A stretch of DNA of 16,742 nucleotides, from UHGV virus genome UHGV-0281303, one strand, 5' to 3'. The notes under the pieces were generated by a model. It ran no database searches, was not told the DNA's origin, and saw nothing but the letters and a program-made list of their open reading frames with translations. Below, one piece after another: positions 11,936 through 16,742 of the stretch (the stretch's first letter is position 1; every line of letters starts with the position of its first letter). The position numbers and the translations under genes were made by a program. Source of the stretch: a virus.

Positions 11936-14103
11936 TGGCTAAGGCATGGAAAGATGTTATCGCTTCTCCACAGTATCAGGCGTTAACTGAAGAACAGAAA
12001 GCACAGGCTCAAGCGCAATATTTTGATGAGGTTGTTGCCCCTAAGGCTGGTGACAAATGGGCTGAAGCAAGAGATCAGTTTTATGCAGCATACCCTCCGC
12101 CTCAGCAGCAGAAAGAAGAACCATCATTGATGCAACAAGCTGGTGATTGGCTCACAGGTGGTCAAAGTGCAGGGCAAATTGCAGAACAGGCTGGTCGTGG
12201 TCTGGTAAACATACCATTTGACGTATTGCAGGGTGGCGCAAGTCTGATTAATGCAATCAGCCAGGGGCTTGGCGGCCCCAAGGTTTTGGATGATGTTTAT
12301 CGCCCCGTCGATCGACCGACAGACCCTTACGCGCAAGCCGGTGAAACAATTGGTGGGTATCTCCTGCCAATTGGCACAGCGGCAAAAGCTGCTGGATCGC
12401 CAGCAAAGCTCGCTGAAGATATCGGTTCCGCAGGAAACATGATTGCAGGTTCTCTTGCTGATGCTGCAAATCAGGAGGGCGACTTTGCACAAAATGCTGC
12501 CATTAACGGTGGTATCAATATTGGTGCTCAGGGGATACTTTCTGGCGCTGGAAGGATCTTAACATCTAAATCACCTCAAGTTCTTGGTGGCGGGGCAATA
12601 AATTCCGCTGCTGATGTTTCGAAAATGGCAAAGTCTGGTACAGGAAGAGAGATTATTGCCAGACAGTCAGCTAATGTGTCAGACGAAATAGCAAAAGCAG
12701 CAGATACTGCTGGAATAGATATCAACGCATTAACTCCTGGCATGAGATCAGGTAGTCGTGGTCTTGCTCAGGCGGAGGGGATTCTGGCGTCAAAGCCCGG
12801 AATTACACAGGATGCACACACCAAAGCATTCAGTGAAATAGAGTCGAAATTTAACTCAGCATTGGATGAGTTTGGGGCTGAAGCAGGAACTGCATCAGAA
12901 AAAAGTGCAGCCATAAAACAAAGGGTTTTGGCAAGTATTGATAAAATGAAAAATTCAGAAAAGGCCGCATGGGATAGCGTCCGCTCCACGATGCCTGACG
13001 CAAAGGCCAGAATGTCAAACCTGAACGCTACAATTCAGGGTGATATTTTGGCTGGCATGCCGCTAACTCCTGAGATGAAACAATTCGCATCTGCTTATGC
13101 TAAAACTGGTAAAAAAGGAATCACGTTTGATGCCATGAAGGCATGGCGAAGTAAACTTGCTGACGCAGAGCAGAAGTATATAAGGTCTGGTGAGGCAAAT
13201 ACGGCAAGGCGCATGGCTGAGCTTCGTGATGCAGCAACGGAAGATATGCGCATAATGGCTCAAAATGGCGGTTTTCTTGATGACTGGCAAAAAGCTAATG
13301 ATCTGTCAAAGGCAAGATTTACAGCACAAGAACAGGCTGAAGCGGCGTTTGGTAGAGACCTTGCAACTGATCAGTTGGTAACTAATGGCTCTAAGGCGTT
13401 ACAGGGTTCAGCAAAAAGTGGAACAGGTCAGTTCCATAAAATAATAAGTGCCCTACCTGAGTCAGAACGCGCGCCAGCAATTGCATCAATATTACAAGAT
13501 GCAATGTCGCAAGGGGTACGCGGAGGTAAGTCTGAAGAGGCTGGAATTAAGCATATCGCGACTATTCTTACCCCACAAAACGTGAAGGCAATTAGTCGAT
13601 ATTCTCCAGAACTTGGCAGGATTACAAGTTCATACGGAGAACTTGCACGAGCAGCAACAAAGCCACTTCGATATGTTGAACAGACAGGGCGATCTATGCC
13701 AGCCATTAGCACTCTTGAGAATGGCCTTCATCCAGTTTTAGAGAGCGCATTGTCTGGCGCTTTTAGAACTACTGGCACTATCGCAGGGTTCTCTGGAGGA
13801 GGCGTTATTGGAGCAATAGCGGGTGGCGCTGCAGGTGGGGCAATTGATGCAATGGCAAAAGGAGCGATAGCGAAATTATCCGCAACTAGAAGCGGTCGTT
13901 ACGCTATTGAAAAGGCTGTTCAAGAGGCAACAAAGGCAGTTAAGGTTGGGGCAAGTGATGGCGCATTAGCGGCGGCGGAACGCAGATTTATGGCAAATAA
14001 GGCCGCCGTAAAAGCAATACGCGAGGCACTAGGAAACGAAGAGTTCCAGCGTTTAGCAAGAGCTGGAATTGTGGCATCGCTAAGCGGAATGGCACAGGAG
14101 TAA
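11935..14103 (+). CDS. ejection (E) protein, P22 gp16-like (extended, 722 aa)
   Basis: Last gene of the late train, start overlapping the upstream stop. Gly/Ala-rich hydrophobic segment near the C-terminus ([29 protein letters not shown]), compatible with a membrane-active ejection protein. Longer than P22 gp16 (about 609 aa). Confidence 0.7.
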
Positions 14104-14487
14104 TTAGTCATCCATGGATGGATTGAGCTTATCTCGTGTTGATGTGGCAATTTTCCCAACATTTTTCAACCAAGATTTTAAGAAGGATATGTCGTCCTTA
14201 ATATCATGAATATCCTCATTCTTTATACGATCAACCTTATCCTCTAAGCTCTCTATAGAACGCTCAATGCTAGACAGAGAGATTTTTAAGTCCCCTTGCT
14301 CACGTTCCAGTGAGGATTTGAGAGCATAATATTCGTTTTCTAGAATTCCTATTTTTTTTGTTAGAGAGTGCATTCGATACTCATACACCAAACCAGAAAC
14401 GACTAATGCAGCCAACAGAAACCATTCAAGCACACCAACCTCCTTAGTTTTGAGCAGGATACCAGATGATGTATGGAGAGGCATCAT
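14104..14487 (-). CDS. small membrane protein with N-terminal TM helix and C-terminal coiled coil (sieA-position cargo gene)
   Basis: 127-codon ORF in AT-rich DNA, where long ORFs are unlikely by chance. Hydrophobic segment VLEWFLLAALVVSGLVYEY, then a heptad-like charged region (LENEYYALKSSLEREQGDLKISLSSIERSIESLEDKVDRIKNE). No obvious Shine-Dalgarno before the ATG, so the start is uncertain. Its stop abuts the gp16-like stop with zero spacer (TAA/TTA at 14101-14106). Confidence 0.55.
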   Translation of the reverse strand: MMPLHTSSGILLKTKEVGVLEWFLLAALVVSGLVYEYRMHSLTKKIGILENEYYALKSSLEREQGDLKISLSSIERSIESLEDKVDRIKNEDIHDIKDDISFLKSWLKNVGKIATSTRDKLNPSMDD

Positions 14488-14605: not shown

Positions 14606-15172
14606 ATGAGCAATGAGACTAATGGGATTGATGAAATGTTTAGCTTGAACGCTGCCAAAGCTGGAGTCGCAATAGGTTTGCTATTACAGCAAGCTTCTGC
14701 GTTCAGTTGTGAGGTGGTTGTTACTGATAACGTTCAGCACGCTTACCATCAATCCTCATTCAGCAGTGAACAGGCTAATGATGAGCTTCATGAGGCGGTG
14801 TCTTCGATTAAAGAATTGTCTCGAATGCTGAAATACGCTTATCGTGTTCTTGCAAACGCTACCGATGAGAATGTAGACAATGTGTTGTCTATCATTGAAC
14901 CAGAAAAGTCTCGATTGATAGAGCATCAATTGAGAGGACTTGAAGGGGCAATGAAATCGGTATTCAAAGAAGCTTCTGCTGATTTTAAAGAGATCGCAAG
15001 AGATATCTATATCGTTGTTGCTGATGCTAGATCTGCCGTAACTAACCTGAATAGTCTTATTAAACAACGCTCATGTGTTCCGGTTGTTTTTGATAGTTCC
15101 GTAGATATGGCTGGTTTGCGTGCGCTTGCTGAGCACGGGACTCGTGTGTTTCACTCTGGTAACTTCCACTGA
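14606..15172 (+). CDS. hypothetical protein (188 aa), upstream partner of the YafO-like toxin; candidate antitoxin/immunity component of unknown family
   Basis: Strong ribosome-binding site AAGGAGG 5 nt upstream of the ATG. Stop codon TGA overlaps the Shine-Dalgarno (GAGG) of the downstream gene, with an 8-nt gap. Acidic, predicted mostly helical, no DNA-binding or TM motif that I recognise. Confidence 0.75.
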   Translation: MSNETNGIDEMFSLNAAKAGVAIGLLLQQASAFSCEVVVTDNVQHAYHQSSFSSEQANDELHEAVSSIKELSRMLKYAYRVLANATDENVDNVLSIIEPEKSRLIEHQLRGLEGAMKSVFKEASADFKEIARDIYIVVADARSAVTNLNSLIKQRSCVPVVFDSSVDMAGLRALAEHGTRVFHSGNFH

Positions 15173-15180
15173 GGTAAAAC

Positions 15181-15630
15181 ATGCAAGTAACCGTGGAATA
15201 TAATCAGGATAGTTTTGACTATTTTTTCTCCCCGGTTTTTGTTGAGTTTCCTGATTTAAAACAAACACTTGTAGATGATTTTATCATCTACAAGTCTACG
15301 GGAACGTTGCCCAGCTATTTTGGCAGAGACACCTCTTATCATCGGCCTCCTGATATTGAAGATGCAGGTCTTATGCACCTTCATTTAGCAATTGGTGAAA
15401 ATAAATTTGAGCCAATAAAAAATGGCACAGATATCAGCACACCGCAAAAGTTGCAGTGGCATAAAACATCCAATACCGCTCTCGTTTATGCACAAAATCT
15501 TTTTGATGAGAACAGGTATTCATTGATTGCTCTTTTTCATCCAGTAGCTCACATGTCTGCTAACAATCATAATAGAATGAGAGTGTTAGCAGGGTATGCG
15601 AGAGACTTTAGAAACACTATGTTTGACTAA
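15181..15630 (+). CDS. YafO-family toxin-like protein (ribosome-dependent mRNA interferase family)
   Basis: 149 aa. Motifs DFIIYKSTGTLPSYFGRD, HLHLA, ALVYAQNLFDENRYSLIALF and NNHNRM...FR align by eye with E. coli YafO as I recall it (DFISYKRDGVLPDTFGRD, HIHLA, HLVYCQGAFDEQAWLLIAIL, NNQMH...FR). Followed by an intrinsic terminator. Confidence 0.8.
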   Translation: MQVTVEYNQDSFDYFFSPVFVEFPDLKQTLVDDFIIYKSTGTLPSYFGRDTSYHRPPDIEDAGLMHLHLAIGENKFEPIKNGTDISTPQKLQWHKTSNTALVYAQNLFDENRYSLIALFHPVAHMSANNHNRMRVLAGYARDFRNTMFD

Positions 15631-15656
15631 ACCCACCGTCAGGTGGGTTTTTTTAT
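15630..15656 (+). terminator. rho-independent terminator after the toxin gene
   Basis: Stem ACCCACC (15631-15637), loop GTCA, GGTGGGT (15642-15648), then a T-run to 15654. Starts immediately after the stop codon at 15628-15630. Confidence 0.75.
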
Positions 15657-15686: not shown

Positions 15687-15866
15687 ATGACCATAGAAGA
15701 ACGTGTGGAAAACCTTGAACGCACCATCAAAGTGATGAAGTGCCATCTTGGAGAACTTCATCTTGAATCACTGAAGCATCAAGCAGAAGAGCTTGAGAAA
15801 TCAGCAAAATCAATGCGCAGTCGTTACGATTCGACTCTGGAGGCTATTAAAAACGGTAGCTATTGA
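15687..15866 (+). CDS. small hypothetical coiled-coil protein (59 aa)
   Basis: ATG at 15687 with AAGGA 7 nt upstream; charged helical sequence (MTIEERVENLERTIKVMK...). Not in the ORF track, presumably because it is under the length cut-off. Its 3' end overlaps the 3' end of the convergent minus-strand ORF by 20 nt, so one of the two may be spurious. Confidence 0.35.
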   Translation: MTIEERVENLERTIKVMKCHLGELHLESLKHQAEELEKSAKSMRSRYDSTLEAIKNGSY

Positions 15867-16032
15867 TACGAGAAGCAGTATCCAGATCATCCCTATCTCC
15901 GCTTCTTGTTAGTTCATCAAAAACAGCTTGTCGAGCATCTGGTGGCAACTTGGAGTAGATAAGTGATACCAGTTTATGAAGTTTCTTTAACTCGCGCTGC
16001 AACTCTTCGTTAGACATTGGTTTATTATTCAT
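15847..16032 (-). CDS. hypothetical protein (61 aa), distal gene of the mnt operon
   Basis: ORF in AT-rich DNA on the same strand as and downstream of mnt and orf90, 24-nt gap from orf90. Weak Shine-Dalgarno (AGGT about 9 nt upstream). No family recognised. Confidence 0.5.
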   Translation of the reverse strand: MNNKPMSNEELQRELKKLHKLVSLIYSKLPPDARQAVFDELTRSGDRDDLDTASRINSYRF

Positions 16033-16056
16033 TTTACATACCTGCCATGTACGCCG

Positions 16057-16329
16057 TTAATTAACTAATGTCATTGAACCTGGAAGGTTGCCACCTCTGA
16101 GATCAATACATTCTTCAGCTGTAGCCATTCTCCAATTTCCAAAAGCATCACGTATAGCAAATTGGTCTTCAAAGCCAAGCCAGATAGAGCACTGACCAAA
16201 CTCATCATATGTCTCTATCCGTATTGACTCTTCGGTAAACGGATAATAAGCTTCATATCTCTTTGCAAGCTCAATAGTGAAAGGAAGTACTTTTATTTGC
16301 TCGAAAATTTCTTTGTTCGTTGGTTTCAT
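16057..16329 (-). CDS. hypothetical protein (90 aa), translationally coupled to mnt
   Basis: Start ATG overlaps the mnt stop (ATGA, 16326-16329). GGGATGGG/AAGGGA purine-rich stretch 6-10 nt upstream. No family recognised. Confidence 0.6.
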   Translation of the reverse strand: MKPTNKEIFEQIKVLPFTIELAKRYEAYYPFTEESIRIETYDEFGQCSIWLGFEDQFAIRDAFGNWRMATAEECIDLRGGNLPGSMTLVN

Positions 16330-16568
16330 TTCCCATCCCTTACACGTTGTAGAACATCAATAGTCACATCAAGAGCCTCTTTCTCTGACTTGGTCAGTTG
16401 CTGACTACTTGAAGGTATTACCTGCTCTTTATGTATCTTTATCCACAATTGGATAGCGGCAATAATTTCAGCATTGATAGAGCGACGATTTGTTGCAGCA
16501 ATATGCGTAAGTTGCTGTTTTATCTCATCTGGCATTCTTACGTTGAATTGCGGATCATTTCTAGCCAC
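16326..16568 (-). CDS. mnt: Mnt-like ribbon-helix-helix repressor (immI region)
   Basis: 80 aa starting at a GTG (reverse complement of CAC at 16566-16568) with AAGGAG 6-7 nt upstream. N-terminus MARNDPQFNVRMPDEIKQQLTHIAATNRRSINAEIIAAIQ resembles P22 Mnt (MARDDPHFNFRMP...ANGRSMNSELLQIV) as I recall it. Divergent from an Arc-like gene. Confidence 0.85.
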   Translation of the reverse strand: MARNDPQFNVRMPDEIKQQLTHIAATNRRSINAEIIAAIQLWIKIHKEQVIPSSSQQLTKSEKEALDVTIDVLQRVRDGK

Positions 16569-16585
16569 GTCATTCTCCTTTTATT

Positions 16586-16640
16586 TGTTGACATGCTAGA
16601 ACGGTAGTAGTACGCTTTCAATAGTAGTACGGTAATACCA
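16586..16640. promoter_or_regulatory. divergent overlapping promoter/operator region between mnt and arc, with a direct repeat TAGTAGTACG
   Basis: + strand: -35 TTGACA (16588-16593), 17-bp spacer, weak -10 TACGCT (16611-16616). - strand: -35 TTGAAA (complement of 16616-16621), 17-bp spacer, -10 TAGCAT (complement of 16593-16598). Direct repeat TAGTAGTACG at 16605-16614 and 16623-16632, each containing the palindromic core GTAC. Confidence 0.4.
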
Positions 16641-16653
16641 CAAAGGGGATGAC

Positions 16654-16742
16654 ATGCAAGGTGCAAGAAAAATGCCGCAGTTCAATTTGCGGTGGCCTAA
16701 AGAAGTATTGGATTTGGTGCGCAAGGTAGCTGAAGAGAACGG
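16654..16742 (+). CDS. arc: Arc-like ribbon-helix-helix repressor, 5' part only (truncated by the window end)
   Basis: Translation MQGARKMPQFNLRWPKEVLDLVRKVAEENG... resembles P22 Arc (MKGMSKMPQFNLRWPREVLDLVRKVAEENGRS...) as I recall it. AAAGGGGA ribosome-binding site upstream. Runs off the window. Confidence 0.85.
   Translation, partial: MQGARKMPQFNLRWPKEVLDLVRKVAEEN

What the first reader, a model, noticed from the sequence alone, without database searches (positions are those of the whole stretch)
15847..16568. Mnt repressor operon carries two unknown small genes (orf90, orf61) that would be expressed in the lysogen
In P22-type immI, Mnt is the maintenance repressor made in the prophage state. 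Here mnt is followed on the same strand by a 90-aa gene whose start overlaps the mnt stop (ATGA) and then a 61-aa gene, all AT-rich. The arrangement of an RHH protein with an overlapping downstream small gene mirrors RHH-antitoxin/toxin architecture. Alternatively these are lysogenic-conversion or exclusion cargo riding on the repressor transcript. I recognise neither protein.
Basis: partly seen in the sequence, partly recalled or inferred. Interest (0 to 1): 0.6.

Follow-up and report, generated by a model that had tools for sequence, protein, structure and literature searches.

The report
Small accessory genes behind phage Mnt
Two small genes behind the Mnt repressor of a P22-like prophage are real. 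The 90-aa one belongs to an undescribed protein family that is almost always found beside phage antirepressor switches, the 61-aa one is the usual gene after mnt in this phage group, and they are not a toxin-antitoxin pair.

Summary
On the minus strand, mnt (16568-16326, 80 aa, GTG start), orf90 (16329-16057, ATGA overlap with the mnt stop) and orf61 (16032-15847) run in one direction. They lie in an AT-rich stretch opposite arc, in the gene-16/tailspike variable region of a P22-like prophage. Both small ORFs are under purifying selection (dN/dS 0.08-0.21).

orf90 is an acidic 90-aa alpha+beta protein (AF2 pLDDT 92) with no Pfam, PHROG, NCBIfam, PADLOC or PDB relative. In about 19 distinct loci from podo-, sipho- and myovirus-type prophages it lies within 2 kb of an antirepressor gene wherever enough flank is visible. 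Its position varies:
- after mnt;
- after ant on the opposite transcript;
- alone and divergent from ant;
- before mnt;
- fused to an RHH domain in the Mnt position (P0032).

orf61 follows mnt in 39 of 41 further P22-like loci. Its only constant partner is a convergent 59-aa ORF that overlaps its 3' end.

The toxin-antitoxin reading is not supported. The TA-like cassette in this region is the YafO-family gene next door. Best reading: orf90 is an accessory part of antirepressor (immI) control, probably a protein-binding modulator, sitting in a cargo slot of the mnt transcript that holds other genes in related phages. Function and lysogenic expression remain untested.

The parts
16655..16742 (+). 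5' part of arc (Arc repressor), cut by the window end
   Evidence: Reads MQGARKMPQFNLRWPKEVLDLVRKVAEEN. 94.6% nt identity to P22 arc. The full 52-aa Arc, followed by a 73-aa ORF and a 307-aa Ant, is seen in L038, whose Mnt, orf90, orf61 and 59-aa proteins are identical to the window's.
16569..16654 (.). Divergent arc/mnt control region (candidate Pant/Pmnt and operators)
   Evidence: Promoter-like TTGAAA-17-TAGCAT on the minus strand at 16621-16593. Direct repeats TAGAACGGTAGTA / TAGTACGGTAATA spaced 28 nt apart. AAGGAG lies 7 nt before the mnt GTG. The operator assignment is inferred, not tested.
16326..16568 (-). mnt-like ribbon-helix-helix repressor, 80 aa
   Evidence: Pfam Arc PF03869 3.3e-13. 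48% identical to P22 Mnt over residues 1-40 only. 88.5% nt identity to the gene annotated mnt in phage Emek.
16057..16329 (-). orf90: acidic 90-aa alpha+beta protein of an undescribed family associated with antirepressor modules
   Evidence: ATGA overlap with the mnt stop. 26 homologue clusters with the invariant core GQC..LGF.DQF.IRD.FG. dN/dS 0.13-0.21. AF2 pLDDT 92, fold H-H-E-E-E-E-H. No family or fold match. Next to ant/RHH genes in every locus examined.
15847..16032 (-). orf61: small helical protein (phrog_16466), the usual gene downstream of mnt in many P22-like prophages
   Evidence: phrog_16466 2.7e-11. Homologues in Emek and Kapi1. dN/dS 0.08-0.09. It follows mnt in 39 of 41 IMG/VR loci. 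AF2 pLDDT 75, helical hairpin plus a short helix.
15687..15866 (+). Convergent 59-aa coiled-coil ORF (cc59) overlapping the orf61 3' end by 20 nt; the constant partner of orf61
   Evidence: Conserved family with the invariant N-terminus MTIEER. dN/dS 0.12-0.23. Present and overlapping orf61 by 10-26 nt in all 41 IMG/VR loci and in L001, L002, L012, L013 and L038.
15629..15650 (+). Strong hairpin terminator of the + strand YafO cassette; the only strong hairpin available to a minus-strand mnt transcript, but with no U-tract on that strand
   Evidence: Fold z-scores are -3.8 (+ strand) and -3.5 (- strand), and the minus-strand tail is UUUAGUC.

Best explanation
The segment is the mnt side of a P22-type secondary immunity (immI) region. 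Its leftward transcript carries two unrelated accessory genes.

orf90 is a member of a previously undescribed family of about 90-aa acidic alpha+beta proteins that belong functionally to antirepressor (Ant) switches. I infer that it is a protein-binding modulator of the antirepressor pathway. Most likely it binds and buffers Ant, or works together with the RHH repressor, so that in this phage Pmnt delivers both a transcriptional block (Mnt) and a post-translational one (orf90). It is not a toxin and not a DNA-binding protein.

orf61 is a separate small helical protein that forms a fixed convergent pair with the 59-aa ORF. It is the default gene after mnt in many P22-like prophages. Here orf90 sits in the variable slot between mnt and orf61.

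Shown: the gene order, the coding status, the family distributions and the fusion. Inferred: co-transcription from Pmnt, lysogenic expression, and the binding target.
For: 1. The region is immI:
- Mnt-like RHH protein and divergent arc.
- ant, tailspike and sar RNA in sister loci L013 and L038, which carry identical or near-identical proteins.
- Ejection gene 16 on the left.

2. Both ORFs are coding and under purifying selection.

3. orf90 lies within 0-2 kb of an antirepressor gene in about 19 distinct loci from P22-like, siphovirus-like (Yersinia, hydrothermal metagenomes) and myovirus-like (Enterobacter, Pectobacterium) prophages. Five arrangements occur:
- ant<-arc<-|->mnt->orf90;
- mnt<-|->arc->ant->ant2->orf90;
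- ant<-|->orf90 with no RHH gene;
- ant<-|->orf90->mnt (L025);
- an RHH-orf90 fusion (P0032, 152 aa) divergent from an ORF6N antirepressor.
Proximity kept through rearrangement argues for functional coupling.

4. The fusion is genuine:
- The identical protein is found on 6 contigs from JGI, ENA and Logan, in at least two different phage backbones.
- Its RHH part is 64% identical to a 94-aa protein in the Mnt position of Acinetobacter phage A3926.3.

5. orf90 is more conserved than the Mnt beside it: 58-60% against 29% amino-acid identity in L003 and L023. The neighbouring Ant proteins carry five different N-terminal domain types. The family is therefore not a fast-evolving passenger.

7. orf61 follows mnt in 39 of 41 loci and overlaps the convergent 59-aa ORF in 41 of 41.
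Against: - No interaction, expression or phenotype data exist.
- The family is optional. The same 80-aa Mnt type and similar Ant proteins occur without orf90 (Emek, E. coli prophages), and other unrelated genes occupy the same slot. That is how cargo behaves.
- orf90 is always at the edge of the module, which also fits a hitch-hiker.
- Its expression context is contradictory across loci: with mnt in some, with ant in others.
- No domain is shared by all the adjacent Ant proteins, so a single conserved Ant binding site is not evident.
- In a Kapi1 lysogen, mnt transcripts were not detected above threshold (PMC12922286).
Confidence: 0.45

Rival explanations
1. Both genes are ordinary morons: lysogenic-conversion, exclusion or anti-defence cargo. 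They use the mnt transcript as an expression platform. They stay near immI only because the module and its flanks move together in the mosaic gene-16/tailspike region.
For: - The slot after the same Mnt type holds unrelated genes in other prophages. Emek orf77 is a two-TM protein. E. coli prophages carry 136/117/107-aa or 81/161-aa genes. P22 carries orf59a.
- The literature describes this region as very variable among P22-like phages (PMC8022706).
- orf90 always lies at the module edge.
- orf61 plus the 59-aa ORF also occur with no immI at all (L040, L041).
- The region is AT-rich.
Against: - orf90 keeps its proximity to ant in three virion types and five arrangements, including the opposite transcript and the reversed order.
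- It is fused to an RHH domain exactly in the Mnt position, in a lineage maintained on at least two phage backbones.
- It is more conserved than its neighbours.
- It has no PADLOC or defence hit.
Confidence: 0.3
2. orf90 is a cofactor or detachable C-terminal domain of the RHH repressors. It would be an oligomerisation, co-repressor or signal-sensing module that alters Mnt or Arc operator binding, rather than acting on Ant.
For: - In the RHH-orf90 fusion P0032, the orf90 domain replaces the C-terminal tail of a repressor in the Mnt position.
- In arrangements A and B, in L025 and in the fusion, orf90 is on the same transcript as an RHH gene (mnt or arc).
- In distant homologue P0040 an RHH gene lies adjacent, but convergent on the opposite strand.
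- Translational coupling to mnt through the ATGA overlap.
Against: - Four distinct loci have orf90 divergent from ant with no RHH gene next to it; L004 and L024 have none within several kb, and L026 only one about 3 kb away (L004/L029, L024, L026).
- The 80-aa Mnt type works without orf90 in other prophages.
- orf90 is far more conserved than the Mnt proteins it accompanies, which is unexpected for a specific partner.
Confidence: 0.15
3. mnt and orf90 form a type II toxin-antitoxin pair: the RHH protein is the antitoxin and orf90 is the toxin.
For: - An RHH gene whose stop overlaps the start of a small downstream gene.
- The RHH protein gives weak hits to the FitA-like (5.6e-05) and RelB-like antitoxin models, both below cut-off.
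Against: - orf90 matches no toxin family in Pfam, NCBIfam, PADLOC or the PDB.
- It is acidic.
- It occurs after ant genes or alone, with no adjacent RHH gene.
- The RHH protein is a bona fide Mnt with arc divergent from it.
- The default gene overlapping mnt in this phage group is orf61, not orf90.
- A recognisable toxin gene (YafO family, 3.4e-22) sits separately on the other strand.
Confidence: 0.05

Closest known systems
Phage P22 immI region (mnt | arc-ant, sar RNA), including the mnt-orf59a-t_mnt transcript
   Same: - Same position between ejection gene 16 and the tailspike gene.
- An RHH Mnt-like repressor divergent from arc across about 90 bp.
- A small gene of unknown function carried on the mnt transcript.
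- Sister loci carry ant and sar.
   Different: - Mnt resembles P22 Mnt only in its first 40 residues and has no PF11423 hit.
- orf59a is unrelated to orf61 and to the 59-aa ORF.
- P22 has no orf90.
- sieA is replaced by a 188-aa gene plus a YafO-family cassette.
- No terminator is recognisable after orf61.
Lederbergvirus phages Emek (mnt-orf77-orf69, convergent orf61) and Kapi1 (mnt-Kapi1_062, convergent Kapi1_061)
   Same: - Emek's mnt is 88.5% nt identical to the window's.
- An orf61 homologue (40% identity) on the mnt strand, converging on a homologue of the 59-aa ORF.
   Different: - Neither phage has orf90. Emek has an unrelated two-TM orf77 in that slot.
- In Kapi1, the orf61 homologue overlaps mnt directly.
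Type II toxin-antitoxin modules with RHH antitoxins (for example ParD-ParE, FitA-FitB, RelB-RelE; from general knowledge)
   Same: - An RHH gene followed by an overlapping small gene.
- In one relative, an RHH domain and a second domain are joined in one chain, as in antitoxins with a DNA-binding N-terminus and a partner-binding C-terminus.
   Different: - No toxin homology.
- The pairing is not conserved across homologues.
- The RHH protein is the immI repressor.
- If the analogy holds at all, Ant rather than orf90 would be the protein being held in check.
RHH regulators with a fused C-terminal regulatory or oligomerisation domain (NikR; Mnt's own tetramerisation helix; from general knowledge)
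   Same: P0032 joins an Arc-size RHH domain to the orf90 domain by a linker of about 20 residues. It sits where other phages have a 94-aa RHH protein with a short C-terminal tail.
   Different: In the window the two are separate genes, and Mnt keeps its own C-terminal helix. No ligand or oligomerisation role has been shown for orf90.
Lysogen-expressed exclusion genes of the P22 gene-16/gene-9 region (sieA)
   Same: Small accessory genes, leftward-oriented within the late operon, in the same variable region.
   Different: - SieA is unrelated.
- orf90 and orf61 have no predicted membrane segments.
- orf90 is also found in non-P22-like phages, always beside antirepressor genes.

Membership tests
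P22-type immI secondary immunity region | Ribbon-helix-helix Mnt-like maintenance repressor | tested here: met
   Pfam Arc PF03869 3.3e-13, above cut-off. 48% identity to P22 Mnt over residues 1-40.
P22-type immI secondary immunity region | Mnt C-terminal tetramerisation domain (Pfam Repressor_Mnt, PF11423) | tested here: not met
   The window protein gives no PF11423 hit, and similarity to P22 Mnt stops at residue 40. The Symbiopectobacterium Mnt in L012 does carry PF11423. A different C-terminal helix may do the same job.
P22-type immI secondary immunity region | arc transcribed divergently from mnt across a short control region | tested here: met
   arc starts at 16655, 86 bp from the mnt GTG. 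94.6% nt identity to P22 arc.
P22-type immI secondary immunity region | Antirepressor gene (ant) downstream of arc, with sar antisense RNA | tested here: inconclusive
   The window ends inside arc. L038, with identical Mnt, orf90, orf61 and 59-aa proteins, has arc, a 73-aa ORF and a 307-aa Ant. L013 has Ant (P22_AR_N + P22_AR_C), the tailspike and a sar RNA hit of 63 bits.
P22-type immI secondary immunity region | Location between ejection protein gene 16 and tailspike gene 9 | tested here: met
   Gene 16 (DNA transfer protein) ends at 14103 and is 97.8-99.8% identical to those of HK620 and vB_EcoP-611R6. The tailspike is seen on the far side in L013.
Type II toxin-antitoxin module (RHH antitoxin + toxin) | The downstream protein belongs to a toxin family or fold | tested here: not met
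Type II toxin-antitoxin module (RHH antitoxin + toxin) | The two genes stay adjacent as a pair across homologues | tested here: not met
   orf90 lies after ant genes on the opposite transcript in 7 loci, and alone divergent from ant in 4 distinct loci. The same Mnt type occurs without orf90.
Type II toxin-antitoxin module (RHH antitoxin + toxin) | The toxin arrests growth and is neutralised by the antitoxin | not testable with these tools
   Needs expression of orf90 alone and together with mnt.
orf90 family (undescribed, defined here) | About 90 aa with the invariant core D..(G)QC..LGF.DQF.IRD.FG and an H-H-E-E-E-E-H fold | tested here: met
   Alignment A1: 27 sequences, 16 invariant columns. 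AF2 pLDDT 92.
orf90 family (undescribed, defined here) | Encoded within an antirepressor (Arc/Mnt + Ant) module | tested here: met
   The window has mnt and arc adjacent. All other loci with enough flank have an Ant-type gene within 2 kb. Only 10 hits were found among 1.84 billion representative proteins.
PHROG phrog_16466 (unknown function), for orf61 | Profile match over most of the protein | tested here: met
   E 2.7e-11, residues 4-60 against profile positions 10-66 of 69.
YafO toxin family (neighbouring gene 15181-15630) | Match to Pfam YafO_toxin PF13957 above the gathering score | tested here: met
   78.9 bits against a cut-off of 25, E 3.4e-22. The NCBIfam equivalog scores 79 bits, below its cut-off of 153, so this is a family member but not an orthologue of E. 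coli YafO.

The most novel reading that the evidence does not exclude
orf90 is an 'anti-antirepressor'. It would be a small acidic protein that binds Ant-type antirepressors and neutralises them after translation, adding a protein-level layer to immI control alongside Mnt, Arc and sar.

Made from Pmnt in the lysogen, it would mop up leaky or incoming (heterologous) Ant and so stabilise lysogeny against superinfecting phages. Placed after ant, it would act as a built-in timer.

The RHH-orf90 fusion would then be an antitoxin-like regulator, with a DNA-binding domain joined to a partner-neutralising domain, and Ant in the role of the 'toxin'.
Probability: 0.2. Interest if true: 0.65.

Novelty: new variant of a known kind. 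Interest (0 to 1): 0.45.

Why it matters
immI of P22 is a textbook regulatory switch, thought to consist of Mnt, Arc, Ant and sar. A conserved extra protein that travels with antirepressor modules across three tail morphotypes, and that is once fused to the repressor's DNA-binding domain, would be a new player in how prophages guard against untimely or foreign antirepressor activity. That bears on prophage induction, on phage-phage competition and on the frequency of lysogeny, which a recent study found to depend on immI (PMC11016777). If orf90 turns out to be unrelated cargo, the result is still useful. It defines the slot after mnt as a recurrent site for accessory genes that may be expressed in lysogens, and it removes a false toxin-antitoxin call.

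Tried and rejected
- **Family searches.** Pfam, PHROGs, NCBIfam and PADLOC give nothing for orf90. orf61 hits only phrog_16466, of unknown function.
- **Large repetitive proteins** P0031, P0036, P0038 and P0039 in the profile search were rejected as low-complexity or repeat artefacts.
- **Unrelated sequences.** Emek orf77 against the orf90 profile (hhalign probability 0.2). P22 orf59a against orf61 and the 59-aa ORF.
- **Hidden similarity of orf90 to Ant or neighbouring ORFs:** none.
- **Collections with no orf90.** Phage GenBank records and plasmids. E. coli complete genomes match only the mnt part of the segment. The species-representative genome scan gave a single locus, in Shewanella.
- **Shared Ant domain.** P22_AR_C, as a domain common to all orf90-adjacent Ant proteins, was rejected because several are KilA-N, pRha or ORF6N only.
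- **Terminator after orf61.** The fold there is no better than shuffled sequence (z -0.24).
Full report
**What is in the sequence**

Three ORFs run in the same direction on the minus strand:
- an 80-aa ribbon-helix-helix (RHH) gene, 16568-16326. It starts at GTG, which gives MARNDPQFNVRMP, and AAGGAG lies 7 nt upstream;
- orf90, 16329-16057. Its ATG overlaps the RHH stop as ATGA;
- orf61, 16032-15847, starting 24 nt after the orf90 stop.

GC content is 0.38-0.41 here, against about 0.50 in the virion genes to the left. The RHH protein matches Pfam Arc (3.3e-13). It is 48% identical to P22 Mnt over its first 40 residues and unrelated after that.

arc begins 86 bp away on the other strand, at 16655, and runs off the window. 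The DNA-transfer gene 16 ends at 14103. Contig L038 encodes Mnt, orf90, orf61 and 59-aa proteins identical to the window's. It continues through arc and a 73-aa ORF to a 307-aa Ant. The close relative L013 continues to Ant, the tailspike and a sar RNA.

- a 59-aa ORF (cc59, 15687-15866, + strand) converges on orf61 and overlaps it by 20 nt;
- a strong terminator (15629-15650) belongs to the + strand cassette;
- that cassette consists of a 188-aa gene and a YafO-family toxin gene (Pfam 3.4e-22);
- no terminator follows orf61 on the minus strand.

**Are the ORFs genes?**

Yes.
- orf90 has 26 homologue clusters, nearly all of 87-96 aa (one truncated at 71 aa), at 52-99% identity, with 16 invariant columns.
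- Against relatives, pN is far below pS. dN/dS is 0.13-0.21 for orf90, 0.08-0.09 for orf61 and 0.12-0.23 for cc59 where dS is not saturated.

**orf90**

It has no match in Pfam, PHROGs, NCBIfam, PADLOC or the PDB by sequence. It is absent from 50,697 phage records and from PLSDB plasmids.

The informative evidence is genomic context. I labelled ORFs with phmmer seeds in every locus retrieved. In about 19 distinct loci, orf90 lies within 0-2 kb of an antirepressor-type gene. Five arrangements occur:
- **A**, ant<-arc<-|->mnt->orf90: the window, Salmonella L013-15 and L038, Xenorhabdus L003, the siphovirus-type Yersinia L006-8, and L019, L020, L023, L028, L030.
- **B**, mnt<-|->arc->ant->ant2->orf90, which puts orf90 on the antirepressor transcript: the myovirus-type Enterobacter L005, and L009-11, L021, L022, L027.
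- **C**, ant<-|->orf90 with no RHH gene between them: Pectobacterium L004/L029, L024 and L026.
- **Reversed order**, ant<-|->orf90->mnt: L025.
- **A fusion**, described below.

The adjacent Ant proteins carry five different N-terminal domains (P22_AR_N, KilA-N, Bro-N, ORF6N, pRha). No domain is common to all of them.

A profile search of 1.84 billion representative proteins returned only ten hits. One of them, P0032 (152 aa), joins an Arc-like RHH domain to the orf90 domain, which is 49% identical to the window protein. The identical protein occurs on six contigs from JGI, ENA and Logan, in at least two phage backbones. Each time it is divergent from an ORF6N antirepressor, which is the Mnt position. 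Its RHH part is 64% identical to a 94-aa protein that occupies the same position opposite a BRO-N gene in Acinetobacter phage A3926.3.

orf90 is also better conserved than the Mnt next to it: 58-60% against 29% identity in L003 and L023.

**orf61**

It matches phrog_16466, of unknown function. Among GenBank phages it has homologues only in Emek and Kapi1. IMG/VR holds 41 loci:
- In 39 of them the homologue lies on the mnt strand just after mnt. Usually the two genes overlap by 4 nt. In about ten loci a 232-nt gap holds Emek-type orf77. In one locus orf90 lies between them.
- In all 41, a convergent cc59 overlaps its 3' end by 10-26 nt.
- Two loci (L040, L041) have the orf61/cc59 pair beside the tailspike gene with no immI at all.

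The fixed partner of orf61 is therefore cc59, not Mnt. The AF2 model (pLDDT 75) is a helical hairpin plus a short helix, and fold hits are generic.

**The slot after mnt is variable**

The same 80-aa Mnt type (86-92% identity) is followed by different genes in different phages:
- a two-TM orf77 in Emek;
- 136/117/107-aa genes in E. coli strain 266917_2;
- 81/161-aa genes in strain ETEC1730.

P22 itself has mnt-orf59a-t_mnt, and orf59a is unrelated to orf61 or cc59. The phage L genome paper describes this gene-16/gene-9 interval as very variable among P22-like phages (PMC8022706).

**Interpretation**

The toxin-antitoxin reading fails two testable criteria. orf90 has no toxin homology, and the pairing with an RHH gene is not conserved. 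The RHH protein is also plainly the immI repressor.

Two readings remain.
1. **Module component (preferred, 0.45).** orf90 is an accessory part of antirepressor switches. The argument rests on proximity to ant being kept through rearrangement, on its spread across three virion types, on the RHH fusion in the Mnt position, and on conservation higher than that of its neighbours. Being acidic and not resembling a DNA binder, it is most simply a protein-binding modulator. That could be an Ant binder (anti-antirepressor) or a repressor cofactor. Loci with orf90 and ant but no RHH gene favour the first. The fusion is compatible with both, if it is read as an antitoxin-like design that joins a DNA-binding domain to a partner-binding domain.
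2. **Ordinary cargo (0.3).** The family is optional, it sits at the module edge, other genes use the same slot, and its expression context (mnt transcript or ant transcript) is inconsistent.

Co-transcription from Pmnt and expression in lysogens are inferred from spacing only. A promoter-like TTGAAA-17-TAGCAT lies at 16621-16593. In the one lysogen transcriptome found for a relative (Kapi1), mnt itself was not detected above threshold (PMC12922286).

**Novelty and score**

The general arrangement, small unknown genes on the mnt transcript, is known from P22 and its relatives. Three points appear to be new:
- the orf90 family and its specific association with antirepressor modules, including the RHH fusion;
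- the recognition of orf61/cc59 as a fixed convergent pair;
- the recognition of orf61 as the default gene after mnt.

I rate this a new variant of a known kind, with interest 0.45. It is a concrete, testable candidate for an extra layer in a textbook switch, but no functional evidence exists yet.

Noticed in passing
window 14606-15630 (+): A 188-aa ORF (phrog_8416, 5.5e-96) is followed, 8 nt later, by a 149-aa YafO-family toxin gene (Pfam 3.4e-22) and a strong terminator. The cassette is about 98% identical in many of the 457 E. coli genomes that match the queried segment, where it is annotated 'hypothetical protein | type II TA system YafO family toxin'. The 188-aa protein is not YafN-like and may be an unrecognised antitoxin. 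The cassette is absent from L038, which otherwise has an identical mnt-orf90-orf61-cc59 block.
   Followed up: partly
window 15687-15866 (+) with 15847-16032 (-); L001, L002, L012, L013, L038, L040-L080: The 59-aa coiled-coil ORF (invariant N-terminus MTIEER) and orf61 are always convergent and overlap at their 3' ends by 10-26 nt. They do so with or without mnt, arc and ant. Late-operon transcription and mnt transcription would be antisense to each other here. The function of the pair is unknown.
   Followed up: partly
L004 4788-4870, L024 3664-3749, L025 3660-3745, L026 3666-3750, L029 3788-3870 (all -); L018 5871-5957 (+): Rfam sRNA-Xcc1 (RF02221, 67-79 bits, gathering score 53) lies immediately 5' of the antirepressor gene, on its strand. 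This occurs in exactly those orf90 loci that lack arc and mnt between ant and orf90, and also in Shewanella. An APSE phage paper noted the same RNA upstream of an ORF6N gene (PMC7313666). It looks like a leader or regulator of ant genes used as an alternative to Arc and sar.
   Followed up: partly
L031-L033 6001-6459 (+): P0032 is a 152-aa fusion of an RHH domain and the orf90 domain, divergent from an ORF6N antirepressor in siphovirus-like metagenomic contigs. A HicA/HicB pair sits just beyond the antirepressor gene.
   Followed up: yes
L040-L080 (mnt genes upstream of orf61): Mnt proteins of 78, 82, 83, 85 and 90 aa have quite different RHH N-termini. They share the same C-terminal end...ETLKTMYGKDAK, and a near-identical 69-aa orf61 homologue. 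This points to a recombination junction inside mnt.
   Followed up: no
window 16597-16637: Direct repeats TAGAACGGTAGTA / TAGTACGGTAATA (28-nt spacing) and GTAGTAGTACG motifs flank the promoter-like site between arc and mnt. They are candidate operators and differ from the P22 Omnt and Oarc sequences. Mnt has Gln where P22 Mnt has His6.
   Followed up: no
L038 4761-4955 (+): A homologue of P22 orf59a (MAKKPGENTGKNGGIYQEVGPRGG...) lies on the mnt strand beyond cc59 in the contig that shares the window's mnt-orf90-orf61 block. orf59a-type and orf61-type genes can therefore coexist.
   Followed up: no
window 14104-14487 (-): A 127-aa ORF lies directly after gene 16 on the opposite strand. It is covered by the 97.8-99.8% match to HK620 hkcB and to a phage vB_EcoP-611R6 hypothetical protein. 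It is another leftward accessory gene of the variable region.
   Followed up: no
Literature, Kapi1 (L002): In RNA-seq of an E. coli MP1 Kapi1 lysogen, mnt (Kapi1_063) was not detected above threshold. The orf61 homologue Kapi1_062 is not on the list of unexpressed genes (PMC12922286). No supplementary tables were available to check its level.
   Followed up: partly
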